Assembly: GCA_016204355.1 (NCBI GenBank)
Contig: JACQKT010000016.1
Location: forward strand, 47,269 to 111,268
Direction of reading: 5' to 3'
DNA length: 64,000 nt
DNA from: Candidatus Liptonbacteria bacterium
Lineage (GTDB): Bacteria; Patescibacteriota; Minisyncoccia; UBA6257; 2-01-FULL-56-20
Position numbers and translations under genes: made by a program. The notes beneath the pieces are model-generated. The model made no database searches and was not told the DNA's origin. It saw only the letters and a list, made by a program, of their open reading frames with translations. This document shows, piece by piece, positions 8,535 through 27,021 of this stretch (position 1 is its first letter; the number at the start of each line of letters is the position of its first letter).

Positions 8535-10058
8535 ATGAATATTTCGTTTCCGCTTTTGGCAGGCGGGGTGGTTTTGGGTTTGTTAATAGGGTATTGGGCG
8601 AGGCATTTTCTGGCTTCGAAGCAGGCAGGCTCAATTGAGAGAAAAAGCAAGGAAGCCCTCGAAGAGGCCGAATCTAGATCCAAAAAAATAGTTTTGAGCG
8701 CGGAGGAAAAAGCCGCGGCGGTTTTGGTTGAAGCGAAGGAAGACGAAAAGAAACGGCAGTCTGAGATACGAGAAATAGAAAAACGCCTCATGCAGCGGGA
8801 AGAATCGCTCGATAAAAAAATATATTCCCTCGAAGAAGGAGAAAGTTCCCTAAAGAAAAAGGAGGAGTCTCTGAAGGAGAAAGAAAACGAGATCGGAGAA
8901 CTGAAAAATAAAATACAAAAAGAACTCGAGAAGGTAAGCGGCATAGGCAGAGAAGAGGCGAAAGCAGCGCTTTTCAAGGAAGTCGAGGACCAAAGCAGAA
9001 AAGATCTGGCCGAAACATTGCAGAAACTAGACCGCGAAAGAAAGGAAGAAGTCGAAAAGAAGGCGGTGGATATAATGACAACCGCGCTCCAACGTTACGC
9101 CCGTTCGCATATTTCCGAACTTACGACCACGCTCTTCCCTTTATCCGACGAGGAATTTAAAGGAAAAATAATAGGACGGGAGGGGAGGAATATCCGCGCA
9201 TTGGAACGCGCAACCGGAGTCGAGTTCGTGATAGACGAAACTCCGGATAGCGTTGTCATATCGTCTTTCGACCCGTTCCGCAGGGAGGTGGCAAGGCTTG
9301 CTTTGGCGAAGCTTGTTAAAGACGGACGCATACAGCCGGCGAAAATAGAAGAAAAAGTGGAGGAGGCAAAAGAAGAATTGCAAAAGAGGATGATAGAAAT
9401 AGGAGAAGAAGCCGCCGCAGAAATCGGGATTTACGATCTTCCAAAAGAAATAATCCAGCTTCTCGGCAGACTTAATTTCCGGACCAGTTTCGGACAGAAC
9501 GTTCTAACTCACTCCATAGAAATGGCCCACTTGGCAGGAATGATGGCGGCGGACCTGGGGCTCGATGTTCAGGTCGCCAAAAAGGGCGCCCTTCTTCACG
9601 ACATAGGAAAAGCGATAGACCACGAAGTCGAAGGGACGCATGTCGATCTCGGCAGGAAACTTCTGAAAAAATACGGGATAGACGAACGCGTTATCCAGGC
9701 GATGCAGTCGCACCATGAAGAATATCCATACGCGATTCCCGAGGCGTTCATAGTCACGGCGGTGGACGCACTGTCGGCTGCGAGACCGGGGGCGAGGCGT
9801 GGCACTCTCGAGAATTACGTGAAACGGCTTGCGGACCTCGAAAAAATAGCGGGAGAATTTCCCGGAGTGAAAAACGCGTACGCGATTTCCGCCGGACGCG
9901 AGCTGAGAGTTTTCGTCATTCCCGAAAAGATAGACGATTTCGGCGCGCTGGAATTGGCGCGCCAAATTGCCAATCGTATACAATCCGAGTTAAAATACCC
10001 CGGCGAGATAAAAGTAAACGTCATTCGCGAAGTCAGAGCGGTGGAGTATGCCAAGTAA
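8535..10058 (+). CDS. rny: Ribonuclease Y
   Basis: N-terminal TM, long coiled-coil, KH region (IIGREGRNIRALE), HD domain (LLHDIGKA...HH). Confidence 0.9.
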   Translation: MNISFPLLAGGVVLGLLIGYWARHFLASKQAGSIERKSKEALEEAESRSKKIVLSAEEKAAAVLVEAKEDEKKRQSEIREIEKRLMQREESLDKKIYSLEEGESSLKKKEESLKEKENEIGELKNKIQKELEKVSGIGREEAKAALFKEVEDQSRKDLAETLQKLDRERKEEVEKKAVDIMTTALQRYARSHISELTTTLFPLSDEEFKGKIIGREGRNIRALERATGVEFVIDETPDSVVISSFDPFRREVARLALAKLVKDGRIQPAKIEEKVEEAKEELQKRMIEIGEEAAAEIGIYDLPKEIIQLLGRLNFRTSFGQNVLTHSIEMAHLAGMMAADLGLDVQVAKKGALLHDIGKAIDHEVEGTHVDLGRKLLKKYGIDERVIQAMQSHHEEYPYAIPEAFIVTAVDALSAARPGARRGTLENYVKRLADLEKIAGEFPGVKNAYAISAGRELRVFVIPEKIDDFGALELARQIANRIQSELKYPGEIKVNVIREVRAVEYAK

Positions 10059-10141: not shown

Positions 10142-11542
10142 ATGCTTCTAAAATTCTCCAAATTTTTCCTATACGTTTCGCTTTTCAGCGTCTTGATAGT
10201 GATGATATCGACGTTCTTTCCTTTTATCGGAGGGAAGGATTATTTTTTCAGAACGGCGATACAATTGGCGCTGATTTTCTTCATTTTGTGGTGGGGATTT
10301 GAGGCCTCCGACGGAGAAGTTCTGGCGCGGCTGAAAGATATTTTCAGAAAGCCTCTGTTCGCAGCAGTTTCGGCGTTCGCTGCGGCTTTCATGCTGTCCA
10401 CGATTTTCGCATTCGATTCGCACGCCGCTTTCTGGTCCAATTACGAGCGAGGAGAAGGAGGATTCCAAATGCTTCATTACTATGCCTTATTTTTCCTTTT
10501 GGTTTTTCTTTTCAAAGAAAAAAAAGACTGGGAAAGGATTTTCTGGGTTTCCGTGATAGCGGCCGTAGGCATGATACTTTACGGAGTCGGCGCGGCGGTT
10601 TTCGTATCGAATCCCGACGGAAGCCTTTCCAATCCTTTCGGTTTTGTCGGGCCTTATTCCGATTCGGGAAAATTAACGGCGCCAACTTTTATAGGAAGAC
10701 TTTTTTACACGGAGCGATTCCAGGGGTCTCTCGGAAATCCGGCATATGTGGCTCCTTACCTGATGTTCGCGATTTTTTATCTTTTGTGGCTGTGGTTTTC
10801 CGAAAAAAATAAGACTTTGCCGAAAAAATTCGTATATGGAGGACTTGGAGCGCTGTTTTTGGTTTTTTTCCTTCTTTCCAAAACGAGAGGTACTTTTGTC
10901 GGCCTGGCGGGAGCCGTTTTCGTTTTCCTTCTTGTTTTGGCATTCAGTTATCCGAAATTAAGGAAATGGTTCGCGATTTTGATAGCGGCTTTGGCGATAA
11001 TTTTTGGTTCGCTTGTTTACTACAGGAATACGGATTTCGTGAAAAATCTTCCGGCAGGGCGGCTCTTCGATATCGAACTTACCGACAGAACCTTCCAGAC
11101 AAGGCTTTGGACATGGAATTCCGCGTGGCAGGGTTTTTTGGAGAAACCCTTATTGGGATGGGGTCCGGAAAACTTTTCGGGCGTTTTCGACAAATACTTC
11201 GATCCGCGCCATTTCATTCCGGGACAGAACTCGGAAACGTGGTTCGATTACGCGCACAGCATATTTTTCGACTATCTGGTTGAGCTGGGCCTGATAGGAT
11301 TCCTGAGCCACTTCGCGATATTCGCGATATTCTACTGGGAATGGTTTAGAAAATTCCGGCATAAAAACCCCCTTCTTAAGGCGTTGATAGTTTCTCTTCC
11401 CACAAGCTATCTGATACAGGGCTTGGCGCTTTTCAATGTTTTGCCGATATACATAAACCTCTTTTTGTTCCTCGCTTTCGCGTGTTACGAACTTTATTAT
11501 TCCAGGAACGAAACGGTCCATGAAATTTCAAGCGCAACATGA
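10142..11542 (+). CDS. O-antigen ligase/polymerase family membrane protein (Wzy_C-like)
   Basis: ~10-12 TM helices; SKTRGTFVGLAG loop motif; large periplasmic loop; 466 aa. Confidence 0.55.
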   Translation: MLLKFSKFFLYVSLFSVLIVMISTFFPFIGGKDYFFRTAIQLALIFFILWWGFEASDGEVLARLKDIFRKPLFAAVSAFAAAFMLSTIFAFDSHAAFWSNYERGEGGFQMLHYYALFFLLVFLFKEKKDWERIFWVSVIAAVGMILYGVGAAVFVSNPDGSLSNPFGFVGPYSDSGKLTAPTFIGRLFYTERFQGSLGNPAYVAPYLMFAIFYLLWLWFSEKNKTLPKKFVYGGLGALFLVFFLLSKTRGTFVGLAGAVFVFLLVLAFSYPKLRKWFAILIAALAIIFGSLVYYRNTDFVKNLPAGRLFDIELTDRTFQTRLWTWNSAWQGFLEKPLLGWGPENFSGVFDKYFDPRHFIPGQNSETWFDYAHSIFFDYLVELGLIGFLSHFAIFAIFYWEWFRKFRHKNPLLKALIVSLPTSYLIQGLALFNVLPIYINLFLFLAFACYELYYSRNETVHEISSAT

Positions 11543-12168
11543 ATCCCGAAATTAAAAAAATAATAGCCGTTTCGGTAACCATACTGATTGTGATAATCGC
11601 GTATTACGGAACCTATCTTCCGATGAGAAAATCGATGGTTTTTATAGACACAATGCAGCTTTCCGGCAGGGTCAGGACAATAACGGATTTCGAAAACGTT
11701 TTCTCTGTGCCGCTCGACTATCCTTCGCCGGTCGGGCAGGAAGAACTTGTTCGGAGCGTTGCAAACACCGTTGCGAACAACGTCAAAAATATTTCCGATC
11801 CCAGGGGCGTGGAGGAACTCATTGGCTTCATCGAGAAATACTACAACCCGATCATAGAAAGAGGGAGGGGAATGAGTTTCGGCCAGGATGTTTACATAAT
11901 GGGAATGATGAACGAATTCGCCTATTTGCAGACACGCGAACCGAAATATCTCCAAAATGCCGAAAGGTATTTCAAGCAGGAACAGGCTTTGGGACCAAAA
12001 CGCCCGCAATCCCTTTACGGACTTATGGATGTTTACAGGCTTGAGGGAAACGTGGATGAATTCAAAAAAATCGCGGAACAGGTTTTGCGCCAGTGGCCGA
12101 ACGACGCGAGAACAAAGACGTTTATCGAAGAAATGACGGAAAATTCGTCAGGCACGAAAACTCAATAA
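11539..12168 (+). CDS. Hypothetical membrane-anchored protein (N-terminal TM + helical/TPR-like soluble domain)
   Basis: ATGA overlap with the upstream gene; no recognisable catalytic motif. Confidence 0.4.
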
Positions 12169-12172: not shown

Positions 12173-13201
12173 ATGTCCGAAGATAAAAAAAGAAAGGTTT
12201 CGCTCGTAACCGGAGCCACAGGCCAGGACGGGAGTTATCTGATAGAGCTACTTTTGGACAAAGGATATGAAGTTCACGGAATAATCCGGAGAGCGTCCAC
12301 TTTCAACACCTACAGGATTGACCACATTTTCCAGGACCCGCACGAGAAAAACTTGCGTCTGATATTGCATTACGGAGATCTTGCCGACGCAAACACCGTG
12401 CGTAAGCTTATATACGAAATCGAGCCGGACGAAATTTACAATCTAGGAGCGCAATCACACGTGCGCGTAAGTTTCGATATACCTGAGTATACCGCCAACA
12501 TAACGGGGCTCGGAACACTGCGCCTTCTTGAAGCGATAAAAGACTACGAAGAGCATACGGGGAAGAAAGTTAAATTTTACCAGGCAAGCTCGAGCGAGAT
12601 GTTCGGCGCTGCGAAACCCCCGCAGAACGAATCGACTGCGTTCCAGCCGAGAAGTCCGTATGGCGTTTCAAAGGTTTTTTCTTTTTACATCACCAAAAAT
12701 TACCGCGAAGCCTATGGGATTTTCGCGGTCAACGGAATTCTCTTTAATCACGAAAGCCCGCGCCGCGGAGAAACATTCGTAACGCGCAAAATAACCAGAG
12801 GAATCGCCAAGATAGTCGCCGGTCTGGAAAATAAAATTTATCTCGGCAATCTGGAAGCAAAAAGGGACTGGGGCTACGCCCCGGAGTACGTGGAGGCGAT
12901 GTGGCTCATGATGCAGCAGCCGAAGCCGGACGATTACGTGATAGGCACCGGAGAAAGCCATTCCGTAAAAGAATTTCTTGAAGAAGCTTTCAGGTGCGCA
13001 GGCGTAAAAGACTGGGGAAAATACGTAAGTATCGATCCCCGCTATTACCGCCCAACGGAAGTTGAGAATCTCGTTGCGGATTATGCCAAGGCGAGGGAAA
13101 AACTCGACTGGAAACCGAAAACGGGCTTCAAGGAGCTTGTGAAGATAATGGTTGACCATGACATGAAACAGTACGGTCCCGAAGCAAACGCCAAAAAGTG
13201 A
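12173..13201 (+). CDS. gmd: GDP-mannose 4,6-dehydratase
   Basis: [26 protein letters not shown] (YxxxK), [17 protein letters not shown] signature. Confidence 0.9.
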
Positions 13202-13710
13202 AAAAATTCCGTCCCGTAATAAAACCTATCCCGGAAAAAATTTATCGGATTGTCCATAATTCTTTGCCGATAGTCTGCGCGGACATCGTCGTTTCGGACG
13301 GCAGAGGCCGTTTTTTGATGGTTAAGAGGAAAAATGAACCGGAAAAAGGGAAATGGTGGTTTCCCGGAGGGCGCATCCTGAAAAACGAAACATTGAGAGA
13401 AGGAGCGATAAGAAAGCTCGCGGAGGAGACGGGTCTGAAGCCAAAAAGAGTGAAAGAACTCGGAGTTTACGAATATTTCAATCCCACAGGATATTTCCGC
13501 GGCACAAATACGCACGCGATAGCATTCCCTTTTTACATGGAAATTTCCGCAGCAAAAGTTAAACTCGACGCACAGAGTTCCGATTGGAAGTGGTTTGACA
13601 GGGCAAGCAGCGGCTGGCATCCTTACTTAAAATACTCTCTTAAAAGGGCTGGGTTTCCCTTAAAAGGGAAAAAAAGGAAAAAGGTAAAAATAACTTTTCC
13701 GAAACAATGA
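13198..13710 (+). CDS. gmm: Nudix hydrolase, GDP-mannose mannosyl hydrolase-like
   Basis: Nudix box [24 protein letters not shown]; position directly after gmd as in fucose/colitose clusters. Confidence 0.65.
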
Positions 13711-14891
13711 TACGGCTCATTAAATACACGTTTTATCACGAGAACGAAACAAAGAAAAAACTGGCGGATTTTGTGGTTAAATCGAAACGTCTGAGTTTCG
13801 GTTCGGAATGCGAATCTTTCGAAAGGAATTTCGCCAAGTATCAGGGGAGAAAAGACGCCGTTATGTTCAATAGCGGAAGCTCGGCGAATTTGGCGCTCAT
13901 ACGCGCCTTGCTAAATTTGGGAATTCTCCGCAAAGGAGACGCCGTGGGATTTTCCGCTACAACCTGGTCCACCAATGTCATGCCGCTTATAGAGATGGGC
14001 CTTGAGCCGGTTCCCGTCGACGTGGAAATAGAAACGCTGAACGTATCGTCGGAAACTTTAAAAAAGGCCTTCAAACGCCGGCGGCTGAAAGGATTTTTCC
14101 TGACAAACGCGCTGGGATTTTGCGATGACATCGATAACATAAAAACTTTTTGCAAGCGGAATAAAATTGTTTTCATAGAAGACAATTGCGAAGCGTTAGG
14201 CAGCGTTTTCAAACGGAAAAAGCTCGGCAATTTCGGCCTTGCGGGCACTTTTTCTTTTTACGTCGGGCATCACATGCCGACCATAGAGGGAGGAGCGGTG
14301 GCGACTGACGACAAAGAACTCGCGGCGATGCTCCGCATCGTCCGCGCGCACGGATGGGACAGAAACCTCAAAGAAGCGGAAAGCAAAAAACTGCGCCGGT
14401 GCTTCAAAATAACGTCTCCTTTGTATGCCAAGTACACGTTTTACGATCTCGGATACAATCTTCGCCCTACGGAGATACAGGGGTTTCTCGGAAAAAATCA
14501 GCTCAAATTCCTTCCGGAGATAGTGAAAAAACGTCAGAATAATTTCATCTCGATCGGGCGACAAATATACAGGATGAAGAACAAATATGTTCCTATCGAA
14601 TACGGCCACATGGACGTCGTTTCCAATTTCACTTTTCCGGTGGTATGCCGTTCTGGCAGGATAATGGAAGAATTGGTCAAAAAGTGTGACAAAAAAATAG
14701 AAATAAGGCCTCTGATAGCAGGCGATATAACGCGCCAACCGTTTTTCAAAAAATACGTTAAGCGCTACGCCGATTCCAAAATGACGCCTAATGCGAAAAT
14801 CATCCATGAACGCGGAATTTATTTCGCGAACCATCCCGACCTGTCGGCGGCGGAAAAGAAAACAATAATCGATGTTTTCTCTAAAGGATAA
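13707..14891 (+). CDS. DegT/DnrJ/EryC1-family PLP enzyme with His in place of the Schiff-base Lys: GDP-4-keto-6-deoxy-D-mannose 3-dehydratase (ColD)-like
   Basis: The motif SFYVGHHMPTIEGG has Lys->His, as in ColD/E1 3-dehydratases. 394 aa with no C-terminal Fe-S Cys cluster, which argues against E1/RfbH. It sits between gmd/gmm and an Fcl-like reductase. Confidence 0.55.
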   Translation: MIRLIKYTFYHENETKKKLADFVVKSKRLSFGSECESFERNFAKYQGRKDAVMFNSGSSANLALIRALLNLGILRKGDAVGFSATTWSTNVMPLIEMGLEPVPVDVEIETLNVSSETLKKAFKRRRLKGFFLTNALGFCDDIDNIKTFCKRNKIVFIEDNCEALGSVFKRKKLGNFGLAGTFSFYVGHHMPTIEGGAVATDDKELAAMLRIVRAHGWDRNLKEAESKKLRRCFKITSPLYAKYTFYDLGYNLRPTEIQGFLGKNQLKFLPEIVKKRQNNFISIGRQIYRMKNKYVPIEYGHMDVVSNFTFPVVCRSGRIMEELVKKCDKKIEIRPLIAGDITRQPFFKKYVKRYADSKMTPNAKIIHERGIYFANHPDLSAAEKKTIIDVFSKG

Positions 14892-15807
14892 AAAAATACT
14901 TCTTACCGGCGGCTGGGGATTTTTGGGCAGCGTCGTAAAAGACACGCTTCTGGAGCGTGGCGTGGAAGAAAAAAACATTTATGCGCCGCGGAGCACAGAG
15001 ATGGATCTGAGGAAAGCTGATGATTGCCGCAAGGTTGTTTCCGGATGCGAAGCCGTAATTCACGTAGCCGGCACGGTTGGCGGAGTGGGATTCAACATAG
15101 AGCATCCGGCTATGGCGTTTTACGACAATGCGGCGATGTCGCTCAATCTTCTTGAAGCCTCACGCCTGGAAGGCGTTAAAAAATTCGTCGGCGTCGGTTC
15201 CGTCTGCGAATACCCCAAACTCACACCCGTTCCTTTCAGGGAAGACGACCTTTGGAGCGGGTATCCCGAGGAGACGAACGCCGCCTATGGTTTGGCAAAG
15301 AAAATGATGCTTGTGCAATCGCAGGCATACCGGGCGGAATACGGCTTCAACGCCGTACATTTGCTTTTCACCAATCTGTACGGGCCGGGGGACAATTTCG
15401 ACCTCAAAAATTCGCATGTTCTCGTGGCTCTTGTCAGAAAGGCCGTTGAAGCGGCCGAACGGGGCGACAAATTCATAGACGTTTGGGGGACCGGAAAGGC
15501 GACAAGGGATTTCCTTTATGTGGATGACGCGGCCGAGGCGATAGTTCTTGCGGCGGAAAAATATGACGGAGGAGAGCCGGTGAACGCAGGTAGCGGCCGC
15601 GAAATTTCCATAAAAGAATTGGCGGAGCTTATAATGCGCCTGGTAAAATTCAATGGAGAATTAAAATGGGATACTTCCAAGCCCGATGGACAGCCGCGGC
15701 GCATGCTCGACATTTCCCGCGCGAAAAATGAATTCGGGTTCGAAGCCAAGATGGCGCTTGAGGAAGGACTAAAAAGAACGATTGACTGGTATCTAAAGAC
15801 CCGCTAA
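14872..15807 (+). CDS. GDP-L-fucose synthase family epimerase/reductase (Fcl/ColC-like)
   Basis: ILLTGGWGFLGS, YGLAKK (YxxxK), DVWGTG...RDFLYVDD; typical Fcl architecture. Confidence 0.75.
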   Translation: MFSLKDKKILLTGGWGFLGSVVKDTLLERGVEEKNIYAPRSTEMDLRKADDCRKVVSGCEAVIHVAGTVGGVGFNIEHPAMAFYDNAAMSLNLLEASRLEGVKKFVGVGSVCEYPKLTPVPFREDDLWSGYPEETNAAYGLAKKMMLVQSQAYRAEYGFNAVHLLFTNLYGPGDNFDLKNSHVLVALVRKAVEAAERGDKFIDVWGTGKATRDFLYVDDAAEAIVLAAEKYDGGEPVNAGSGREISIKELAELIMRLVKFNGELKWDTSKPDGQPRRMLDISRAKNEFGFEAKMALEEGLKRTIDWYLKTR

Positions 15808-15821: not shown

Positions 15822-16775
15822 ATGAGCGAATCGAGATTCAAAAAAATATTGGTGACGGGTGGCGCAGGATATGTCGGGACAAGCCTTGTTCCAGAACTTC
15901 TTAAGAACGGATACAAAGTCCGCGTTTTCGACAATCTCCGTTACGGAGGGGACGGATTGCTGCATTATTTCAGCGACAAGAATTTCGAGTTCGTCAAAGG
16001 AGACATCCGCGACAAAAAAGCGGTTGAAAAAGCCGTGGAGGGAACGGATGCGGTCATACATTTAGCCTGCATAGTCGGCTTTCCGGCCTGCAAAAAAGAG
16101 CCGGAACTTTCGCGCGAGATAAACGTCGGCGGAACAAAAAATCTCGTGGAAGCGACCAACGGGAGAGCCCCGATATTTTTCGCGTCAACAGGAAGCACGT
16201 ACGGACAGCTCAAAGAAGACCTTTGCACGGAAAACACACCGGTGAATCCGTTGAGCGATTACGGCAAGCATAAAGTCGAGGCGGAAGAAATAATCAAAAA
16301 CGGAAACAAAGGAGAATACGTGATTTACAGGTATGCCACCGCTTTCGGAGTTTCCGGAAGAATGCGCCTGGATCTTTTACCGAACGATTTTACCTACCGC
16401 GCCGTAAAAGAAAAAAGCCTAATTCTTTACGAAAAAACTTTTCTCCGAACTTTCATACACGTCCGCGATATGGCAAAATCCTTTTTGTTTGCTCTGGAAA
16501 ATTATGACAAAATGAAGGGCGAAATTTACAACGTCGGGGACAACAGCATGAATTGCAGCAAGGAAGATTTGGCGAAAATGATCCGCGAAAAGGTGGATTA
16601 TTATCTTCACTTTGCCGACGTGGGACACGACATCGACCAGCGTGATTATATGGTCTCTTACGAGAAAATAAGTAGTCTCGGTTTCCGCACGACGATTACT
16701 TTGCAGGAAGGAATAGATGAATTGATCAAAGCGGCCGAAGCGCTCGAAGTCAGGAACTCGTATTCCAACGTTTGA
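15822..16775 (+). CDS. NAD-dependent epimerase/dehydratase family protein (SDR)
   Basis: ILVTGGAGYVGT Rossmann motif, YGKHK catalytic YxxxK. Confidence 0.7.
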   Translation: MSESRFKKILVTGGAGYVGTSLVPELLKNGYKVRVFDNLRYGGDGLLHYFSDKNFEFVKGDIRDKKAVEKAVEGTDAVIHLACIVGFPACKKEPELSREINVGGTKNLVEATNGRAPIFFASTGSTYGQLKEDLCTENTPVNPLSDYGKHKVEAEEIIKNGNKGEYVIYRYATAFGVSGRMRLDLLPNDFTYRAVKEKSLILYEKTFLRTFIHVRDMAKSFLFALENYDKMKGEIYNVGDNSMNCSKEDLAKMIREKVDYYLHFADVGHDIDQRDYMVSYEKISSLGFRTTITLQEGIDELIKAAEALEVRNSYSNV

Positions 16776-16791: not shown

Positions 16792-16829
16792 AAATAAAAA
16801 CACCGCCGAACGGCGGTGTTTTTATTTAC
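16792..16829. terminator. Bidirectional intrinsic terminator between convergent genes
   Basis: A-run, CACCGCC-gaac-GGCGGTG hairpin, TTTTTATTT. Confidence 0.65.
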
Positions 16830-16842: not shown

Positions 16843-17958
16843 TTACGCCTTTTGATAAAACTCCTTTATTTTTCCAACGACTTCATCTTTTTGTTCGCTG
16901 GTCAGCTGCGATGACGACGGAAGATAAAGTCCGTTGTCGCCGTAGTGATCCGCCCACGGGAATCTTTCGTCTTTCTGAAGATGCTGATAGACGGGCTGGC
17001 GGTGCATCGGGATGAAGAAAGTCCTTGTTTCTATTCCGTTTTCCGCGAGGAAATCCATAAGCTCGTCGCGTTTCGGCGCCAATAGGCCGAACATCCAGAA
17101 AACCGAAAAAGTGTCCGGTTTTTCGGGGAACAAAGTCAGTCCGGGAACATCTTTTAGTCCGTTTATATAATATTGGGCATTTGTTCTCCTTTTCCCTACC
17201 AGTTCATCAAACCGCTTTAGCTGCGCGGAGCCGAGCGCCGCGTTCAGCGCGGGATAACGGAGATTGAAAGCGACGGTCTTGTGCCAGAAATGCATGTCGT
17301 CGTTGAAATCATAGCTCTTCATGTGGTTAAGGGCGTTCGCTAGAGAATCGTCATTTGTAAGAATTACTCCTCCTTCGCCGGAACTGATTATCTTGTTTGC
17401 GAAAAGCGAGAAGCAGCCGGCAATGCCGAAAGTTCCCGCCATTTTGCCCTTGTATTTCGCGCCGTGAATTTCGGCGGCGTCTTCGACTACGTGAAGATTG
17501 TGCTTTTTCGCGATTTCCATTATTGGGTCCATGTCGCACGGTTCGCCGTAAATATGCACCGGCATTATCGCTTTGGTTCTCGGAGTTATTTTTTCCTCGA
17601 TTTTTTTCGGGTCCATATTGAAACTCTGCTCGGAAGAATCCACAAAAACAGGAATCGCGCCGCAGTGGCTTGCCGCCGCCGGACTCGCGACCATCGTGAA
17701 CGAAGGCATAATGACTTCATCTCCTTCTTTTACGCCGAGAGCTTTCAATACGATAAAAAGCGCGGAACCGCCGGAATTAACGGCGATTGCGTGTTTCATT
17801 CCAAATTTTTCAGCGAATTCTTTCTCGAAACGTTTGACCGGCGGCGCGAAGCCTGAAACGTAATTGTTTTTAATGGCCTCGGTTACGTATTCTATTTCAA
17901 GATTGCTCAAGTCCGGCTCGCATACTCTTATTTTTATCGGCGGATATTCTTTTTTCAT
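16843..17958 (-). CDS. DegT/DnrJ/EryC1/StrS aminotransferase (NDP-4-keto-6-deoxyhexose 4-aminotransferase; GDP-perosamine synthase-like by context)
   Basis: SLFANKIISSGEGG retains the catalytic Lys; co-oriented immediately downstream of the second gmd. Confidence 0.7.
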   Translation of the reverse strand: MKKEYPPIKIRVCEPDLSNLEIEYVTEAIKNNYVSGFAPPVKRFEKEFAEKFGMKHAIAVNSGGSALFIVLKALGVKEGDEVIMPSFTMVASPAAASHCGAIPVFVDSSEQSFNMDPKKIEEKITPRTKAIMPVHIYGEPCDMDPIMEIAKKHNLHVVEDAAEIHGAKYKGKMAGTFGIAGCFSLFANKIISSGEGGVILTNDDSLANALNHMKSYDFNDDMHFWHKTVAFNLRYPALNAALGSAQLKRFDELVGKRRTNAQYYINGLKDVPGLTLFPEKPDTFSVFWMFGLLAPKRDELMDFLAENGIETRTFFIPMHRQPVYQHLQKDERFPWADHYGDNGLYLPSSSQLTSEQKDEVVGKIKEFYQKA

Positions 17959-18020
17959 TGGTTATTAGTTTTGGGTTTAGGCGCCGGTTTTTCGCATGCG
18001 CCGGCGGCCACAACTAAAAC
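17959..18020 (-). repeat. Intercistronic hairpin repeat, copy 1 (full, exactly fills stop-to-start gap)
   Basis: Minus strand reads GTTTTAGTTGTGGCCGCCGG...ACCGGCGCCTAAACCCAAAACT...ATG; homologous to 31408-31463. Confidence 0.7.
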
Positions 18021-18998
18021 TTATTTTTTGTCGACCATCTCGCGCTTCGCTTCTTTCAAATCGTGCTCGAGCATTATCTTTATAAGTTCTTTGAATTTTA
18101 CTTTGGGGTCGAACCCGAAGGCATTTTTTGCCTTGGAAATATCACCGAAAAGTATCGTATTCGTAGCCGGCCGCAAAAATTTAGGATTTACCTTGACGTA
18201 TTTCGACGGGTCTAAATTCACCTGTCTGAAAGTTTCATCGACGAACTCCTGGACCGAGTGCGTTTCGCCCGTTGAAATTATGTAATCGTCGGCCTTCGGC
18301 TGCTGCAAAATGCTCCAGGCGGCTTCCATGTATTCTTTCGAATAACCCCAGTCGATTTTGGCGGAAAGGTCGCCGAGCTCGAGAGCATTCTGGAGACCGA
18401 GCGATATTCTGGCGGCGGCTTTGGTAACTTTTCTCGAAAGGTATTCATCCGGCCGGCGGGGAGATTCATGATTGTAAAAAATCGCCGTGCCCACGAACAT
18501 GTCGTAGGTTTCGCGGTAAAACCTGCTGATTACCGCCGCCAGAACTTTGGCGCAGGCGTACGGGCTTTGCGGCTGGAAGTCCGTATTTTCCGTCTGCGGG
18601 ATATCTGTCGTTTTTCCGAACATGTGAGAAGACAGCGGCTGGAACACTTTTATTTTCGGATTGAGCTGGCGGATTATCTCAAGAAGGCGTCCCACAGCCG
18701 CTCCCGTCACGTTGTACTGAAAATCAACGGCCTCGAAACTCCAGCCGACGTGGTCCTGGTCGGCTTCGTTATAAATTTCGTCCGGCTGAACAGTCGTTAT
18801 TATTCTGTAAAGAGAAGTCGAATCCAAAATATCGCCGCGGTGAAGCGTAATCTTATCCGTAAAATGTTCGATGTTCCGCGTATTGCCGGTCGCGGTTTTC
18901 CGGTACATGCCGTGGACTTCGTATCCTTTCTCCAAGAGCACTTCCGCGAGATAAGAACCATCCTGTCCTGTAACGCCGAGAATCAGAGCTTTTTTCAT
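18021..18998 (-). CDS. GDP-mannose 4,6-dehydratase paralog (divergent; His replaces the catalytic Glu)
   Basis: [35 protein letters not shown]. The active-site stretch reads LSSHMFG instead of SSEMFG. Confidence 0.7.
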   Translation of the reverse strand: MKKALILGVTGQDGSYLAEVLLEKGYEVHGMYRKTATGNTRNIEHFTDKITLHRGDILDSTSLYRIITTVQPDEIYNEADQDHVGWSFEAVDFQYNVTGAAVGRLLEIIRQLNPKIKVFQPLSSHMFGKTTDIPQTENTDFQPQSPYACAKVLAAVISRFYRETYDMFVGTAIFYNHESPRRPDEYLSRKVTKAAARISLGLQNALELGDLSAKIDWGYSKEYMEAAWSILQQPKADDYIISTGETHSVQEFVDETFRQVNLDPSKYVKVNPKFLRPATNTILFGDISKAKNAFGFDPKVKFKELIKIMLEHDLKEAKREMVDKK

Positions 18999-19068: not shown

Positions 19069-20355
19069 TTGACTTTGTTAATGGATAAATTTATCTTTAA
19101 TCAAACAATGAAAATCGCAATTGTATCGATAAATCTCGAGGCGCAAGGCGGGGGCAACCGCCAGATTTTGATTCTTGCAAGAAACCTTCAGAAGATGGGG
19201 AACAAGGTCGCGATATACACAGTCGCCGCAAATAAAGGAGCATTCTCGAAAATTCAGGAAAATTTGGATGTCAGGGTTATTCCTGCGCCGGGCGGAGCGA
19301 TGGACTGGAAAGCGAAACAAACGGGGTTCATCGGCAGAATGCTTTCAAGGATGCACCATTACCGGCAGGAACTGGAGGCGGCGAAGACGATTGCCGAAGC
19401 GATGGACGCCGATTTCGATGTCGTGAACGTGCACGATTTCGCCTATCAGGCGGCGTATTTTTACAAAAAGAGAAATCCGTCGTGCCGCGTCGTCTGGACA
19501 ATGAACGAGCCGCCGTATATTCATCTTAAAAAAGACGACTTCCTTTCCAATATCGGCAGTATCGTTTACAACAAAATGCGCGATTTCACTGAAAAGAAAT
19601 TCATTCGTGCCGTCGATGCCGGGGCTGTTCTCGCGCCTTTCCAGATGGAGTGGTTGAAAAAAAGGGGAGTAAATGAATCGAGAGTGATAATAAGCGGCGT
19701 CGATTTCGATGACTTCTACGCGCCGGCAAAAAGATTGCCTCAGGATTTGAGCAAAGAGCCCTTCGGCAAGGCTCAGAGCGGGCCGCTGAAGTTGATGACG
19801 CTCGGAACGCCGAACAAATATCGCCGGTACGAAGACGCGATAATTGCCGCTAAAATTCTCCGCGATAAGGGATTGAATGTTCGCCTAGATGTCGTTGCCA
19901 ATAACGTCTGGCAGGAAAACGAATATTGCGGAATGCTCGAAAAGCTCGTTAAAGAAAACAATCTCGAAAGTATCGTAAAGCTGAGTTTCGCGGGCGTTTC
20001 AGAAGAAGAACTGCGCCGGCTTTACAAGGAAAGCCATATACTTTTGCATCTTATCCACGTGCCGCCTATAAGGAGCGGTTCGACTTTCGGACTCGTTATA
20101 TGGGAAGCGATGGCGGCGGGAATTCTTGTTATAGCAAACCACGAACCGAAGCTCGGCTCGCGGCTGACCGACGGCGAAAACGCGGTTTTCGTAAAGCCCG
20201 AGAACGCCGCCGACCTTGCCGAAAAAATAGAAAAAATCGCCTCGCAGCCGGAACTATATTTCAAAATCGCGCAAAGCAGCCAGCGGTTCGTCAAAGAAAA
20301 CATATCGTGGGACATTTATGCCCGCGAAATGATGGAGTTGTTTACCCCAGTATAA
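19069..20355 (+). CDS. Glycosyltransferase family 4 (GT-B, retaining)
   Basis: MKIAIVS start region (probable true start ~19108); C-terminal EAMAAGILVI motif; paralog of the GT4 at 29.1 kb. Confidence 0.75.
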   Translation: MTLLMDKFIFNQTMKIAIVSINLEAQGGGNRQILILARNLQKMGNKVAIYTVAANKGAFSKIQENLDVRVIPAPGGAMDWKAKQTGFIGRMLSRMHHYRQELEAAKTIAEAMDADFDVVNVHDFAYQAAYFYKKRNPSCRVVWTMNEPPYIHLKKDDFLSNIGSIVYNKMRDFTEKKFIRAVDAGAVLAPFQMEWLKKRGVNESRVIISGVDFDDFYAPAKRLPQDLSKEPFGKAQSGPLKLMTLGTPNKYRRYEDAIIAAKILRDKGLNVRLDVVANNVWQENEYCGMLEKLVKENNLESIVKLSFAGVSEEELRRLYKESHILLHLIHVPPIRSGSTFGLVIWEAMAAGILVIANHEPKLGSRLTDGENAVFVKPENAADLAEKIEKIASQPELYFKIAQSSQRFVKENISWDIYAREMMELFTPV

Positions 20356-21831: not shown

Positions 21832-21877
21832 GAGGTATATGTTAAAGGAAATGTTATTAAGGGGCAATATCCGGGGG

Positions 21878-21905
21878 TTGACAGCTGCCGTCCATAGGCT
21901 ATAAT
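21878..21905 (+). promoter_or_regulatory. Near-consensus sigma70 promoter (TTGACA-16 nt-TATAAT), 11 nt before the ATG (near-leaderless)
   Basis: Read directly; drives the RHH-cysD-cysN operon. Confidence 0.6.
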
Positions 21906-21916
21906 TACCTGTAATT

Positions 21917-22965: not shown

Positions 22966-22973
22966 TAAATATT

Positions 22974-24586: not shown

Positions 24587-25948
24587 ATGTCCAAAAAACC
24601 CAACGTAATACTTATAACCCTCGACGCGTTGCGCCCGGACCATCTGGGCGTTTACGGCCACAAGAAAAATACAAGCCCGTTTCTCGACTCGCTTGCGGAA
24701 AGAGGGGTTGTTTTCAAAAACTCTTTTTCGACCGGTTCGGCTACGCCGCAATCTTTCCCGGGAATACTGTCTTCGACTTACCCGCTGGATTTCGGCGGAT
24801 ATTCTCGGGAAGCGTTAAATAAAAGGACCTTGATTTCGGAGGTTTTTCAAAAAGCCGGTTATAAAACGATGGGATTCCACTCCAACGCCTATCTTTCGGA
24901 ATATTTCGGATATGGCAAAGGATGGGATGTTTTCAGGTATCTTAACTACTTCAAGAACAGCGGCGTTTCGCGGGCGATGCGTAGCAGCACCTGGCAGGCG
25001 AAGTTCGCCAAAAAACTTTTCGACTGGGAAACGAAAGGAGCCGAGAAGAAAACGATTTTTGGCCGCATAGCGAAACTGCTCGAGCCGGTTATTTCCACGC
25101 TGAGAAAAATCTATCTGAACATAGTCCGGCCGATTCCTCCCTATTACACTGCCTTCGAGATGAACGAAGCGGTAAAAGAAGAAATAAAAGAGAAACAGAA
25201 CAAGCCGGTTTTTCTTTGGGTTCACTACATGGACGCGCACGACCCTTACGGGCTTTTTCTGCGCAAAGGAAAAAATTTTTTCCCGAAAATGAAGTCGTAT
25301 TTTCTCGATTATCTTATGACTTTTTTCGGGGAATATCCGAAAGTGAACCGGCTTTTCAGGAGGTTTTATCTGGAGATGTACGACGAAGGCATACGGAATA
25401 TAGACAACGCGCTTAAAGAGCTTTTTGCTCGTCTTTCCGAAAGGGGAATCCTAAACGACGAAACCGCTGTTTTCATAACCGCTGACCACGGCGAAGAATT
25501 CGGCGAACACGGTGGGTTTATACATCCGCAAAAAGCTTTCGGCGAGAACATAAAAGTTCCTCTGATTGTTGTCGCTCCGGAGAAATTTGCCGGAGAGCCG
25601 GGGAAAACGGAAACGCCGCGTTCGCTTATCGACCTTGCGCCGACGATGCTCGCGTATTCCGGAATCTCTCAGCCGGCGAATTTCAGGGGTAAAAATATTT
25701 TCGACGGCGAAGAAAGAGACGTCATAATAGAACTTTCAACGCACGAAGCCGACCTTTCCGGAATCAGCCTTAAGGCGTCGGCGATAATTTCGGAAGGCCA
25801 CAAACTTATAAAAATGAAATCATGCAGTTTGCTTTTTTCGCTCGACGACCCGAGGGACGAAAAAAATCTTTTCGGGAAAAACGAAAAAATTGATTCGTTG
25901 CTCGGGAAGAAGCTTGAAAAATTCTTGAATTCAAACCGCAACAAATGA
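24587..25948 (+). CDS. Sulfatase-like alkaline-phosphatase-superfamily hydrolase/transferase, cytosolic, Thr at the nucleophile position
   Basis: ITLDALRPDHLGVYG, TSPFLDSLAERGVVF. The sulfatase signature C-x-P-S-R is replaced by T-P-Q-S-F. No signal peptide or TM segment. Confidence 0.6.
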   Translation: MSKKPNVILITLDALRPDHLGVYGHKKNTSPFLDSLAERGVVFKNSFSTGSATPQSFPGILSSTYPLDFGGYSREALNKRTLISEVFQKAGYKTMGFHSNAYLSEYFGYGKGWDVFRYLNYFKNSGVSRAMRSSTWQAKFAKKLFDWETKGAEKKTIFGRIAKLLEPVISTLRKIYLNIVRPIPPYYTAFEMNEAVKEEIKEKQNKPVFLWVHYMDAHDPYGLFLRKGKNFFPKMKSYFLDYLMTFFGEYPKVNRLFRRFYLEMYDEGIRNIDNALKELFARLSERGILNDETAVFITADHGEEFGEHGGFIHPQKAFGENIKVPLIVVAPEKFAGEPGKTETPRSLIDLAPTMLAYSGISQPANFRGKNIFDGEERDVIIELSTHEADLSGISLKASAIISEGHKLIKMKSCSLLFSLDDPRDEKNLFGKNEKIDSLLGKKLEKFLNSNRNK

Positions 25949-27021
25949 GAAGTCTTTATATTTTATTGGCAGGCGCGGACCAGTTCCCGAAAAGCTTTTT
26001 CGAAGGCAAAGGAATTTTTTTCCGGCCGTACGACGGTGGGAGCCCCAACGCACTTTTTTGGAACGATTTTTACGAAACGTGCGCCAAAAAAGGAGTATCT
26101 GTTAAATCCTATACGGAATGGAACAGAGAAAAGTCCAAGCCCGACGACATACTGCTCGTTTTAAACCACCCCGGCGAAACGTTGCTCTGGCGTCTTTATT
26201 ATTATCTCCGCTATCCCAAGGCGGGAGGGGGATTTTTACTTAAACGCAGAACATTTTTCCGCGAAAATTATAAATTTTTCAAAAGGAGGATTTTGATGCA
26301 GCTCGAACCGCTTGTCGCGATGCCATACGTGTATTCGCAGCTCGACGACGTTGTAAGGGCTGGTTTTTACGACAAAATTTTCATTACGAGCCGCGTTTCG
26401 AACGAAAAGTGGGAATACTTCAACTATTTCGAACATCGCGCCAGAAATATAATAAGCCCGCATTTTGACGCCTCCAAAACAAAGTACATAACGATGGTGA
26501 ATTCGAATGTCAGGCCGCATTCGCTAAAAGGCGACCTCTACGGCGAGCGGCTGAAAGCTATAAAATTTTTCAGCAATTCCCTCGATTTCGACCTGTACGG
26601 CTTCTATTGGGATTTGCCGGTAAGGCATCCGTTGTATTTCGGCTACGACAAATACGTAAAGAAATCCTGGCGCGGAAGAATCCCGGACAAATTGAAAACC
26701 GTCAGCGAATACAAATTCTCAATTTGCTTCGAAAACGGCGCGTATCCGGGATGGGTCAGCGAGAAAATTTTCGATTGCCTGGCCGCCGGTTCCATCCCCG
26801 TTTATCTCGGAGCTCCGGACATAGAAAAAATCGTTCCGCAGGATTGTTTCGTAGATTTCAGAAAATTCGGAAGTTATGCGGAGTTAAATAAATTTTTGCA
26901 CAATCTTTCCGAGAAGGAACTGGAAGAATACCGAAATAGGATAAAAAAATTTCTTAGCGCACCTGCGGATTACGGCAAAGTGAAAAAATTCGCCGATAAG
27001 GTTATTGGGGTAATCAAGTAA
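25945..27021 (+). CDS. Glycosyltransferase family 10 (alpha-1,3/4-fucosyltransferase-like)
   Basis: YKFSICFENGAYPGWVSEKIFDCLAAGSIPVYLG matches the GT10 FEN-x-YVTEK-type motif. Confidence 0.6.
   Translation: MRSLYILLAGADQFPKSFFEGKGIFFRPYDGGSPNALFWNDFYETCAKKGVSVKSYTEWNREKSKPDDILLVLNHPGETLLWRLYYYLRYPKAGGGFLLKRRTFFRENYKFFKRRILMQLEPLVAMPYVYSQLDDVVRAGFYDKIFITSRVSNEKWEYFNYFEHRARNIISPHFDASKTKYITMVNSNVRPHSLKGDLYGERLKAIKFFSNSLDFDLYGFYWDLPVRHPLYFGYDKYVKKSWRGRIPDKLKTVSEYKFSICFENGAYPGWVSEKIFDCLAAGSIPVYLGAPDIEKIVPQDCFVDFRKFGSYAELNKFLHNLSEKELEEYRNRIKKFLSAPADYGKVKKFADKVIGVIK

What the first reader, a model, noticed from the sequence alone, without database searches (positions are those of the whole stretch)
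13707..14891. ColD-type PLP 3-dehydratase (Lys->His) completes a GDP-colitose-like pathway
Within the DegT fold, the Schiff-base lysine is replaced by histidine (SFYVGHHMPTIEGG). The co-resident bona fide aminotransferase at 16843-17958 keeps the Lys (SLFANKIISSGEGG). Together with gmd, a Nudix gmm and an Fcl/ColC-like reductase in one co-directional block, this predicts a GDP-3,6-dideoxyhexose (colitose-like) sugar. That is rare outside a few Gram-negative O-antigens and unexpected in a CPR-like genome.
Basis: partly seen in the sequence, partly recalled or inferred. Interest (0 to 1): 0.55.

Follow-up and report, generated by a model that had tools for sequence, protein, structure and literature searches.

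The report
ColD-type sugar 3-dehydratase in a CPR bacterium
This gene very probably encodes a vitamin-B6 enzyme that removes the 3-hydroxyl from a GDP-linked sugar, so that a tiny uncultured (CPR) bacterium can put a colitose-like dideoxy sugar on its surface. The reading is sound, but such genes turn out to be common in these bacteria, not rare.

Summary
ORF 13707-14891 (+) is a 394-aa DegT-fold protein. Its His188 (SFYVG-H-HMPTIEGG) aligns with catalytic His188 of E. coli O55 ColD and with the Schiff-base Lys of the window's own aminotransferase. The E1/SpnQ iron-sulfur cysteine motif is absent. ColD is the best match by sequence (E 8e-60) and by fold (TM 0.83).

The gene overlaps its neighbours in a gmd-Nudix-X-Fcl-like operon. 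Three other CPR genomes keep the gmd-X-fcl core. A natural GMD::X fusion exists in the family.

Caveats:
- The protein is only 35% identical to ColD, whereas known ColD orthologues share 62-67%. It belongs to a separate deep clade.
- The reductase cannot be told apart from Fcl.
- The Nudix protein lacks Gmm's catalytic His.
- A Cj1427-like dehydrogenase and a GDP-heptose cassette in the same island leave a heptose substrate open.

The claim of rarity fails. At least 563 species genomes carry relatives, the best 80 are nearly all CPR, and 669 clusters at 50% identity match at E <= 1e-30.

Verdict: a new member of a known kind, of moderate interest.

The parts
13707..14891 (+). ColD-type (His-for-Lys, Fe-S-free) PMP/PLP-dependent nucleotide-sugar 3-dehydratase, 394 aa
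   Evidence: Pfam DegT 211 bits. Best PDB sequence match is E. coli ColD 2gms, E 8e-60, against E1 at 7e-43. AF2 model pLDDT 85; the best fold match is ColD, TM 0.83. In an NJ tree it is sister to ColD in 96/100 bootstraps.
14253..14294 (+). Active-site motif SFYVGHHMPTIEGG; the His188 codon is 14268-14270
   Evidence: Aligns column for column with ColD SFYSHHIATMEGG and with the aminotransferase motif SLFANKIISSGEGG. The His is conserved in 206/206 close homologues and in 148 of the best 150 cluster representatives.
12173..13201 (+). GDP-mannose 4,6-dehydratase (Gmd), the supplier of the 4-keto-6-deoxy substrate
   Evidence: TIGR01472 526.6 bits (cut-off 415). 54.5% identical to E. coli Gmd. 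Best PDB match is a GMD, 466 bits. Its stop codon overlaps the start of the next gene.
13198..13710 (+). Nudix hydrolase, GDP-mannose mannosyl hydrolase-like (assignment weak)
   Evidence: The best NCBIfam hit is Gmm, but at 64.9 bits against a cut-off of 146. 32-34% identical to the two E. coli O55 Gmm proteins. The Gmm 'EQHDD' His aligns to Ser. The gmd-Nudix order is the same as in the E. coli O55 cluster.
14872..15807 (+). Fcl-family GDP-4-keto-sugar epimerase/reductase (candidate ColC equivalent)
   Evidence: GDPFucSynFcl 275 bits, below the cut-off of 500. 34% identical to E. coli Fcl and 31% to E. coli O55 ColC. Ser107, Cys109, Tyr136, Lys140 and His179 are all conserved. It overlaps the ColD-like gene by 20 nt.
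15822..16775 (+). Last gene of the operon: an SDR homologous to C. jejuni Cj1427, a GDP-heptose C4-dehydrogenase. Its role here is unknown.
   Evidence: PDB 6vo6 at E 7e-86, 291 bits. The entry title was confirmed as Cj1427. It is not part of the cassette conserved in L009.
10142..12168 (+). Upstream operon genes: a Wzy_C-domain membrane protein (10142-11542) and a conserved 209-aa protein with no family match (11539-12168)
   Evidence: Pfam Wzy_C 74 bits. Both are syntenic with L009 (73% and 63% identity), and the second also with L007 (71%).
19069..20355 (+). GT4 glycosyltransferase, adjacent to the gmd-colD-fcl cassette in the syntenic locus L009
   Evidence: Pfam Glycos_transf_1 and Glyco_transf_4. 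66% identical orthologue in L009 directly after the fcl-like gene.
25945..27021 (+). GT10 (alpha-1,3-fucosyltransferase family) glycosyltransferase; candidate transferase for the L-fucose-like GDP-sugar
   Evidence: Pfam Glyco_transf_10 63 bits. PDB matches to alpha-1,3-fucosyltransferases at about 1e-10. 58% identical orthologue follows the GT4 gene in L009.
16801..16818 (.). Terminator-like hairpin, readable on both strands, between the convergent + operon and the - strand per/gmd2 pair
   Evidence: This is a consensus scan only.

Best explanation
The gene encodes a ColD-type sugar 3-dehydratase. It is a fold-type-I vitamin-B6 enzyme in which the usual Schiff-base lysine is a histidine (His188), and it has no iron-sulfur cluster.

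The proposed route has four steps.
1. The adjacent Gmd converts GDP-mannose to GDP-4-keto-6-deoxy-D-mannose.
2. The PMP form of this enzyme forms a ketimine with C4 of that sugar. His188 abstracts the C4' proton, the C3 hydroxyl is expelled, and hydrolysis releases GDP-4-keto-3,6-dideoxy-D-mannose plus ammonia. PMP is regenerated from glutamate.
3. The overlapping downstream Fcl-family enzyme, which keeps the Cys/His epimerisation pair and the Ser-Tyr-Lys reduction triad, epimerises C5 and reduces C4. That gives GDP-L-colitose or a close stereoisomer.
4. Glycosyltransferases of the island, with the GT10 and GT4 genes as the first candidates, put the sugar on a surface glycan.

Shown here: the fold, the His position, the absence of the Fe-S motif, the gene order and overlaps, the conserved synteny, and a GMD fusion in the family. 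Inferred: the substrate, the chemistry and the final stereochemistry.
For: - His188 is aligned to ColD His188 and to the aminotransferase Lys.
- The E1 cluster region 'DCYCAPGCDNTC' aligns to 'DRNLKEAESKKL', and there is no C-x-C-x7-C motif anywhere in the protein.
- ColD is the best match by sequence and by fold.
- The clade groups with ColD rather than E1 in 96/100 NJ bootstraps.
- Positions D159, E162, S183, R219, N251, R253, E332 and R334 are identical to E. coli ColD (the last five spell 'RNRER' there too), and the 'RNRER' pattern is kept in 113 of the 150 family representatives. E1 differs at two of the five, 'RNKGR'.
- gmd is bona fide, and the four genes overlap.
- The gmd-colD-fcl order is conserved in L007, L009 and L024, with gmd 75-80% identical. 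These loci form the window's own subclade in the tree.
- L009 keeps the order WzyC-unk-gmd-colD-fcl-GT4-GT10.
- P0250 is a natural fusion of a full GMD domain (448 bits) with a His-type DegT domain. Several other family members are fused to SDR reductase-like domains.
- The Fcl-like protein keeps all five catalytic residues.
- The E. coli O55 colitose cluster shows the same gmd-Nudix adjacency and also contains colC and colD, in the order colC-colD, the reverse of the window's ColD-like-then-Fcl-like order.
- The mechanism is taken from the review PMC8987622.
Against: - The protein is only 35% identical to E. coli ColD and 34% to E1. Characterised ColDs share 62-67% (PMC10440746).
- ColD Ser187 is Gly here.
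- The Fcl-like protein is not closer to ColC than to Fcl.
- Only about 12 of the 80 related loci have a GMD within 10 kb. Many pair the gene with a different SDR that resembles a 4,6-dehydratase, or have no SDR at all.
- The same operon ends with a Cj1427-like GDP-heptose C4-dehydrogenase, and a GDP-heptose cassette lies 22 kb downstream.
- No phosphomannomutase was seen in the window, and no clear ManC.
- The roles I assign to R219, N248, R250, E329 and R331 in binding GDP come from my memory of the ColD structure papers. I could not read those papers here.
Confidence: 0.68

Rival explanations
1. The chemistry is the same, but the physiological substrate is a GDP-heptose. One route uses GDP-6-deoxy-4-keto-heptose from a gmd-like heptose 4,6-dehydratase and gives a 3,6-dideoxy-heptose, as in C. 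jejuni HS:5. The other uses GDP-4-keto-heptose from the Cj1427-like dehydrogenase in the same operon and gives a 3-deoxy-heptose.
For: - The window carries overlapping genes 38080-40993 that resemble hddA, gmhA, hddC and gmhB.
- The SDR at 15822-16775 matches Cj1427 at E 7e-86.
- ColD-family enzymes of C. jejuni do act on GDP-heptose 4-keto sugars. With Cj1427 they make GDP-3-deoxy-heptoses in vitro (PMC10440746 and PMC10680097).
- In L072 a 54%-identical Cj1427-like gene lies directly upstream of the ColD-like gene, with no GMD nearby.
Against: - gmd1 scores far above the GMD equivalog cut-off and is 54.5% identical to E. coli Gmd.
- The heptose cassette is absent from the ±10 kb flanks of all 80 related loci, apart from weak hddC- and gmhB-like hits in L054.
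- The conserved cassette in L009 has gmd, fcl and a GT10 fucosyltransferase-family gene, but no Cj1427-like gene.
- All four heptose-cassette genes score below their NCBIfam cut-offs.
Confidence: 0.12
2. The 3-dehydratase works as proposed, but the Fcl-like enzyme is an ordinary GDP-L-fucose synthase. The 3,6-dideoxy-4-keto intermediate would then be finished by another reductase, for example the Cj1427-like SDR or another SDR of the island. The product would be a different 3,6-dideoxyhexose, such as a tyvelose- or 3,6-dideoxy-talose-type D-sugar, alongside GDP-fucose.
For: - The Fcl-like protein is slightly closer to E. coli Fcl (34%, 187 bits) than to ColC (31%, 155 bits).
- Its best PDB matches are entries named GDP-L-fucose synthase.
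- A GT10 fucosyltransferase-family gene is conserved nearby.
- Several further SDRs are encoded in the island.
Against: - The Fcl-like gene overlaps the ColD-like gene by 20 nt and follows it in L007, L009, L024, L042, L069 and L074.
- It scores below NCBI's Fcl equivalog cut-off, 275 against 500.
- E. coli ColC is itself 39% identical to Fcl, so sequence distance cannot separate the two activities.
Confidence: 0.13
3. The enzyme uses a sugar linked to a nucleotide other than GDP (CDP or dTDP), or it is not a dehydratase at all but a PMP-dependent transaminase or isomerase. On this reading the gmd neighbourhood is coincidental.
For: - JGI annotates homologues as 'CDP-6-deoxy-D-xylo-4-hexulose-3-dehydrase'.
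- The best NCBIfam hit is RfbH (E1), though below its cut-off.
- About 13 related loci pair the gene with an SDR whose best, sub-threshold hit is CDP-glucose 4,6-dehydratase.
Against: - There is no Fe-S motif, and no E3-type reductase was seen in the genes scanned.
- The clade is sister to ColD, not to E1.
- The E-x-R motif (E332, R334) is shared with the GDP enzymes ColD and the window's Per-like aminotransferase, but is G-x-R in E1.
- A GMD::ColD-like fusion exists in the family.
- The catalytic Lys needed for ordinary transamination is absent.
Confidence: 0.05

Closest known systems
ColD (WbdK), GDP-4-keto-6-deoxy-D-mannose 3-dehydratase of E. coli O55:H7 (PDB 2gms, 3b8x, 2r0t, 3gr9)
   Same: Same fold, with TM 0.83. 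His188 is at the same column and even carries the same residue number. There is no Fe-S motif. D159, E162, S183, R219, N(248/251), R(250/253), E(329/332) and R(331/334) are identical. The gene sits in a cluster with gmd, a Nudix gene and an Fcl-family gene.
   Different: Only 35% identical. Ser187 is Gly here. The gene order differs: here gmd-Nudix-colD-fcl forms one overlapping operon, whereas in E. coli colC-colD lie on the far side of gnd from gmd-gmm. The host is a CPR bacterium that presumably has no LPS.
C. jejuni HS:5 and HS:11 PLP-dependent C3-dehydratases (GDP-6-deoxy-4-keto-heptose 3-dehydratase)
   Same: ColD-type chemistry on a GDP-linked 4-keto sugar. The window also encodes Cj1427-like and GDP-heptose-cassette genes.
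   Different: Those enzymes are 62-67% identical to E. coli ColD (PMC10440746), so they are true orthologues, while the window protein lies far outside that group. C. jejuni uses a separate cupin C5-epimerase and a separate C4-reductase, not an Fcl-type bifunctional enzyme.
E1 (AscC/DdhC/RfbH), CDP-6-deoxy-L-threo-D-glycero-4-hexulose 3-dehydrase of Yersinia pseudotuberculosis (PDB 3bcx, 3bb8)
   Same: DegT fold with His in place of Lys. 34% identical, TM 0.78. This is the best NCBIfam hit.
   Different: E1 has a [2Fe-2S] cluster held by four cysteines and needs the reductase E3. The window protein has none of those cysteines at the aligned positions and scores 228 bits against a cut-off of 423.
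GDP-perosamine synthase (Per; PDB 3bn1, 3dr4)
   Same: [quoted passage not shown] A Per-like gene lies 2 kb away in the window, at 16843-17958 (-).
   Different: Per keeps the Schiff-base Lys and transaminates C4. The window protein has His and is predicted to dehydrate C3.

Membership tests
ColD-type (Fe-S-independent) NDP-sugar 3-dehydratases | Fold-type-I PLP/PMP enzyme of the DegT/DnrJ/EryC1 family | tested here: met
   Pfam PF01041 211 bits. AF2 model pLDDT 85. Foldseek best match is ColD, TM 0.83.
ColD-type (Fe-S-independent) NDP-sugar 3-dehydratases | Catalytic His replaces the Schiff-base Lys (ColD His188) | tested here: met
   Gap-free alignment to ColD and its H188 mutants, and to the Lys of the window's aminotransferase. 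Conserved in 206/206 close homologues and in 148 of the best 150 cluster representatives.
ColD-type (Fe-S-independent) NDP-sugar 3-dehydratases | No [2Fe-2S] cysteine motif and no E3-type reductase partner | tested here: met
   E1 'DCYCAPGCDNTC' aligns to 'DRNLKEAESKKL'. The Cys residues lie at 35, 139, 149, 161, 232, 314 and 327 only. No ferredoxin-NADP-reductase-type gene was found among the window genes scanned. The rest of the genome was not seen.
ColD-type (Fe-S-independent) NDP-sugar 3-dehydratases | Cofactor- and GDP-contact residues of ColD (D159, E162, S183, R219, N248, R250, E329, R331) | tested here: met
   All are identical by alignment. Their structural roles are from my memory of the ColD structure papers and were not re-read here.
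ColD-type (Fe-S-independent) NDP-sugar 3-dehydratases | Ser187 next to the catalytic His, the residue implicated in the choice between dehydratase and aminotransferase activity in E. coli ColD | tested here: not met
   It is Gly187 here. Across the family GHH (62), SHH (53) and AHH (15) all occur. The preprint 10.1101/2021.09.04.459008 notes that Ser187 is not conserved among characterised dehydratases.
[quoted passage not shown] | Close sequence relationship (62-67% identity among characterised members) | tested here: not met
   35% identical to E. coli ColD. The clade is sister to ColD but is a separate, deep, CPR-dominated clade.
[quoted passage not shown] | Genomic coupling to GDP-mannose 4,6-dehydratase and a 4-keto reductase/epimerase | tested here: met
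   Overlapping gmd-Nudix-X-fcl-like operon. Conserved in L007, L009 and L024. A GMD::X fusion, P0250, exists.
[quoted passage not shown] | Demonstrated glutamate-dependent 3-deoxygenation of the GDP-4-keto sugar | not testable with these tools
   Needs an enzyme assay.
E1/SpnQ-type (Fe-S-dependent) 3-dehydrases | Four-Cys [2Fe-2S] motif around the cofactor | tested here: not met
   The NCBIfam RfbH model scores 228 bits against a cut-off of 423.
DegT-family sugar aminotransferases | Schiff-base Lys in the S-x-x-x-x-K-x-x-x-x-x-EGG motif | tested here: not met
   His at that column. The PseC, LegC, ArnB and WecE models all score far below their cut-offs.
ColC (GDP-L-colitose synthase), for the neighbour at 14872-15807 | Fcl-family SDR with Ser-Tyr-Lys plus a Cys/His epimerisation pair, specifically related to characterised ColC | tested here: inconclusive
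   The catalytic residues are all present. However, it is 31% identical to E. coli ColC and 34% to Fcl, and ColC and Fcl are themselves 39% identical.
GDP-mannose mannosyl hydrolase (Gmm/NudD), for the neighbour at 13198-13710 | Gmm-type modified Nudix box and the catalytic His (E. coli 'EQHDD') | tested here: not met
   64.9 bits against a cut-off of 146. The His aligns to Ser, and the Nudix box is 'RKLAEETGL' against Gmm 'RLTMAELGL'. The role of that His is from memory.

The most novel reading that the evidence does not exclude
In this operon the ColD-like enzyme may work with the Cj1427-like C4-dehydrogenase encoded two genes downstream, using the GDP-D-glycero-D-manno-heptose made by the cassette at 38080-40993. 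That would make a GDP-3-deoxy-heptose or a 3,6-dideoxy-heptose. The GDP-3-deoxy-heptoses have, in the one paper consulted here, been made in vitro by mixing C. jejuni enzymes and are called 'novel' there (PMC10680097). More broadly, the large CPR-dominated clade of Fe-S-free 3-dehydratases may have been recruited into several distinct deoxysugar cassettes: one with GMD, one with a different SDR that resembles a 4,6-dehydratase, one with a Cj1427-like SDR, and one with a C-methyltransferase. These could decorate CPR cell surfaces with sugars not yet described.
Probability: 0.1. Interest if true: 0.6.

Novelty: new member of a known kind. Interest (0 to 1): 0.35.

Why it matters
CPR (Patescibacteria) bacteria live attached to host cells, and almost nothing is known about their surface glycans. 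A colitose-like 3,6-dideoxy sugar pathway would mark their surfaces with a sugar class known mainly from Gram-negative O-antigens. The gene belongs to a clade present in at least 563 species-level genomes, and the best 80 matches are mostly CPR. The point is relevant to host recognition, phage receptors and lectin-based detection.

In practice, public records name this protein and its relatives only 'DegT/DnrJ/EryC1/StrS aminotransferase', and RefSeq gives even the characterised E. coli ColD only that generic name. JGI calls relatives 'CDP-...-3-dehydrase'. A His-versus-Lys rule combined with an Fe-S-motif rule would re-annotate hundreds of clusters.

The chemistry itself is not new.

Tried and rejected
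- I looked for a curated ColD model. NCBIfam has none, and its best hit is RfbH (E1), below cut-off.
- I tried to read the primary ColD and E1 structure papers (PMC2533848, PMC2782820) and the Cj1427 structure paper (PMC7509852). None is held. The residue roles I give are therefore from memory plus the review PMC8987622.
- I tested whether the Fcl-like neighbour is a ColC orthologue by fetching the real colC, colD and fcl genes from E. coli O55:H7 CB9615. The result is inconclusive, because the protein is equidistant from both.
- I tested whether the GDP-heptose genes travel with ColD-like genes in other genomes. They do not, which weakens the heptose rival but does not exclude it.
- I tested whether GMD linkage is general for the clade. 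It is not: about 12 of 80 loci have it. The GDP-mannose assignment therefore rests on this locus, its subclade and the fusion protein.
- The single-sequence AF2 model of the SDR at 15822-16775 was poor (pLDDT 49.6). I used its fold search only to read the title of PDB 6vo6.
- Literature searches pairing colitose with CPR or Patescibacteria found no paper that mentions both.
- Both were repeated successfully.
- I considered and rejected the idea that the His is offset from the catalytic column or that another Lys takes its role. The alignment has no gaps for about 100 residues around the motif. The only other invariant Lys, K349, is also present in ColD itself.
Full report
**1. The observation**

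The ORF at 13707-14891 (+) is real: ATG start, 394 aa. It is an exact match to an NCBI protein of a 'Candidatus Liptonbacteria bacterium' MAG, where it is annotated only as 'DegT/DnrJ/EryC1/StrS aminotransferase family protein'. Liptonbacteria belong to the Parcubacteria/Patescibacteria (CPR) group.

The peptide SFYVGHHMPTIEGG is residues 183-196. Pfam assigns the whole protein to DegT_DnrJ_EryC1 at 211 bits. In the phmmer alignment to PDB chains, the segment pairs without gaps with ColD 'SFYSHHIATMEGG'. The three deposited ColD mutants (H188N, H188K, S187N/H188K) differ from wild type exactly at the columns facing Gly187 and His188 of the query. In a MAFFT alignment the same column holds the Lys of the window's own aminotransferase, encoded at 16843-17958 (-), 'SLFANKIISSGEGG'.

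The His is present in all 206 close homologues examined. It is also present in 148 of the best 150 representatives of 50%-identity clusters; the other two are fragments or gapped at this column.

**2. What the protein is**

- The best solved-structure relatives by sequence are E. coli O55 ColD (E 8e-60, 206 bits) and then Yersinia E1 (7e-43, 150 bits).
- An AlphaFold2 model (pLDDT 85) finds ColD first (TM 0.83), then E1, then GDP-perosamine synthase.
- E1's iron-sulfur region 'DCYCAPGCDNTC' aligns to 'DRNLKEAESKKL'. The seven cysteines of the query do not form the E1 motif.
- Of the best 150 family representatives, 147 likewise lack the Cys cluster.
- Positions D159, E162, S183, R219, N251, R253, E332 and R334 are identical to E. 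coli ColD. E1 differs at two of the last five. I recall these residues as cofactor and GDP contacts in the ColD structures, but I could not re-read those papers.
- In an NJ tree rooted on the window's Per-like aminotransferase, the query's clade is sister to ColD with E1 outside, in 96/100 bootstraps.

Identity to ColD is only 35%, whereas the characterised ColDs of E. coli, Yersinia and C. jejuni share 62-67% (PMC10440746). ColD Ser187 is Gly here, a variant common in the family: GHH occurs 62 times, SHH 53 and AHH 15. The protein is best described as a ColD-type enzyme (His present, no Fe-S cluster) from a separate deep clade. It is not a ColD orthologue.

**3. Context in the window**

The gene is the third of four overlapping genes.

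| Coordinates | Gene | Evidence |
|---|---|---|
| 12173-13201 | gmd | TIGR01472 526 bits, cut-off 415; 54.5% identical to E. coli Gmd |
| 13198-13710 | Nudix protein | see below |
| 13707-14891 | this gene | see section 2 |
| 14872-15807 | Fcl-family SDR | see below |

The junctions are GTGA, ATGA and a 20-nt overlap. The operon starts with a Wzy_C protein (10142-11542) and a conserved unknown gene (11539-12168). It ends with an SDR at 15822-16775, before a hairpin that reads as a terminator on both strands.

The Fcl-like protein keeps Ser107, Cys109, Tyr136, Lys140 and His179 of E. coli Fcl, so it should both epimerise and reduce. I fetched the authentic colitose cluster of E. coli O55:H7 CB9615. 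Its order is galF, GT4, gmd, a Nudix gene annotated as GDP-mannose mannosyl hydrolase, manC, manB, a 'fucosyltransferase', wzy, wzx, two GTs, gnd, colC, colD. The gmd-Nudix adjacency is shared with the window. However, the window's Fcl-like protein is 34% identical to Fcl and 31% to ColC, while ColC and Fcl are themselves 39% identical. ColC and Fcl therefore cannot be told apart by sequence.

The Nudix protein's best family is Gmm, but it scores far below the cut-off. The Gmm 'EQHDD' histidine aligns to Ser.

**4. Comparative evidence**

A scan of one genome per species found at least 563 genomes with relatives. The 80 best are almost all Patescibacteria: Levy-, Gottesman-, Pace- and Saccharibacteria and others. 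Some carry 'uncultured Gammaproteobacteria' labels from a bulk TPA assembly set, which I suspect are placeholders. In the 1.84-billion-representative library, 669 clusters match at E <= 1e-30. The claim that the enzyme is rare and unexpected in CPR does not hold at the gene level.

The surroundings vary:
- The window's own subclade (L007, L009, L024, L074) keeps gmd-colD-fcl, with gmd 75-80% identical in the first three.
- L009 is syntenic over RNase Y, WzyC, unk, gmd, colD, fcl, GT4 and GT10, without the Nudix gene, the Cj1427-like SDR or the per/gmd2 genes.
- About 13 loci pair the gene with a different SDR that resembles a 4,6-dehydratase, a second type of Fcl-like SDR, an aminotransferase and a C-methyltransferase.
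- L072 has a Cj1427-like SDR directly upstream.
- About 35 loci have no sugar-modifying neighbour within 4.5 kb.

Gene fusions add independent support. P0250 joins a full GMD domain (448 bits) to a His-type DegT domain, and several relatives are fused to SDR reductase-like domains.

**5. Most likely function**

Gmd makes GDP-4-keto-6-deoxy-D-mannose. The PMP form of the enzyme forms a C4 ketimine. His188 acts as acid/base and the C3-OH leaves. Hydrolysis gives GDP-4-keto-3,6-dideoxy-D-mannose and ammonia, and glutamate regenerates PMP. This mechanism is as reviewed in PMC8987622. The Fcl-like enzyme then gives GDP-L-colitose or a stereoisomer. The conserved GT4 and GT10 genes are the first candidates for transfer; GT10 is the alpha-1,3-fucosyltransferase family.

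My confidence differs by step:
- About 0.9 that the protein is a His-type, Fe-S-free 3-dehydratase.
- About 0.7 that the substrate is the Gmd product.
- About 0.5 that the final sugar is exactly colitose.

**6. Rivals**

1. A heptose substrate. The SDR at 15822-16775 is a clear homologue of C. jejuni Cj1427, the GDP-heptose C4-dehydrogenase (E 7e-86). Genes 38080-40993 look like hddA-gmhA-hddC-gmhB. C. jejuni ColD-type enzymes accept heptose-derived substrates. Against this, gmd1 is a strong GMD, and the heptose genes never accompany ColD-like genes elsewhere.
2. The Fcl-like enzyme is a true Fcl, and another reductase finishes the dideoxy sugar.
3. A non-GDP substrate, or a non-dehydratase activity. 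This is disfavoured by the motif pattern, the tree and the GMD fusion.

**7. Verdict**

The gene is a new, divergent member of a known enzyme kind, in a clade that is widespread in CPR and poorly annotated. The chemistry is known. The interest lies in CPR surface-glycan biology and in better annotation, and it is moderate. No paper in the held library links colitose to CPR.

Noticed in passing
window 38080-40993 (+): Four overlapping genes: a GHMP kinase (best hit HddA), a SIS isomerase (best hit GmhA), a sugar-1-P nucleotidyltransferase (ManC- or HddC-like) and a HAD phosphatase (GmhB-like). [quoted passage not shown] All four score below their NCBIfam cut-offs.
   Followed up: partly
window 15822-16775 (+); L072 about 9048-10000: The SDR is homologous to C. 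jejuni Cj1427, the GDP-heptose C4-dehydrogenase (PDB 6vo6, E 7e-86). It is the last gene of the gmd-colD-fcl operon. In L072 a 54%-identical homologue lies directly upstream of the ColD-like gene, with no GMD nearby. This hints at a natural route to 3-deoxy sugars that combines a C4-dehydrogenase with a C3-dehydratase.
   Followed up: partly
window 16843-18998 (-): An aminotransferase whose best solved relative is GDP-perosamine synthase (3bn1, 297 bits) sits next to a divergent second gmd (344 bits, below the cut-off of 415; 39% identical to E. coli Gmd). This is probably a GDP-perosamine-like branch, convergent with the colD operon.
   Followed up: partly
window 20635-25948: A sugar C-methyltransferase (Methyltransf_13/14) lies on the - strand at 20635-22083. 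It is followed by CysD-like (22154-22939) and CysN-like (23367-24584) sulfate adenylyltransferase subunits and a sulfatase-family protein (24587-25948), all inside the glycan island. This may point to a C-methylated and/or sulfated glycan. L007 has 92%, 69% and 61% identical copies of the last three.
   Followed up: no
window 13198-13710 (+): The Nudix protein between gmd and the ColD-like gene resembles Gmm, but the position of Gmm's catalytic His holds Ser, and the protein keeps a Glu-Glu pair in the Nudix box. It may be a GDP-sugar pyrophosphatase rather than a mannosyl hydrolase.
   Followed up: partly
proteins P0123, P0171, P0193: Some members of the ColD-like family are interrupted by inteins (Intein_splicing, with LAGLIDADG in two of the three). 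The inteins are inserted in the DegT domain near query residues about 190-220, close to the active-site motif.
   Followed up: no
proteins P0250, P0124, P0166, P0199, P0213, P0241: Natural fusions of the His-type DegT domain exist. P0250 is fused to a full GMD domain. The others are fused to shorter SDR reductase-like domains at the N- or C-terminus.
   Followed up: partly
window 11539-12168 (+): A 209-aa protein with an N-terminal hydrophobic segment and no Pfam or NCBIfam match. It is conserved immediately upstream of gmd in L007 (71%) and L009 (63%).
   Followed up: no
L088 (E. coli O55:H7 CB9615, NC_013941.1 2553701-2555787): RefSeq annotates the experimentally characterised ColD as 'DegT/DnrJ/EryC1/StrS family aminotransferase' and ColC as 'GDP-L-fucose synthase family protein'. 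Even the reference enzymes carry no specific name.
   Followed up: yes
window 10142-52839: About 40 kb of the window is one glycan-biosynthesis island. It holds two Wzy_C proteins, at least 8 glycosyltransferases, FkbM and other methyltransferases, PMT_2 proteins, a Wzx-like flippase (43905-45401) and an initiating sugar transferase (48749-50083). That is a large share of a small CPR genome.
   Followed up: partly
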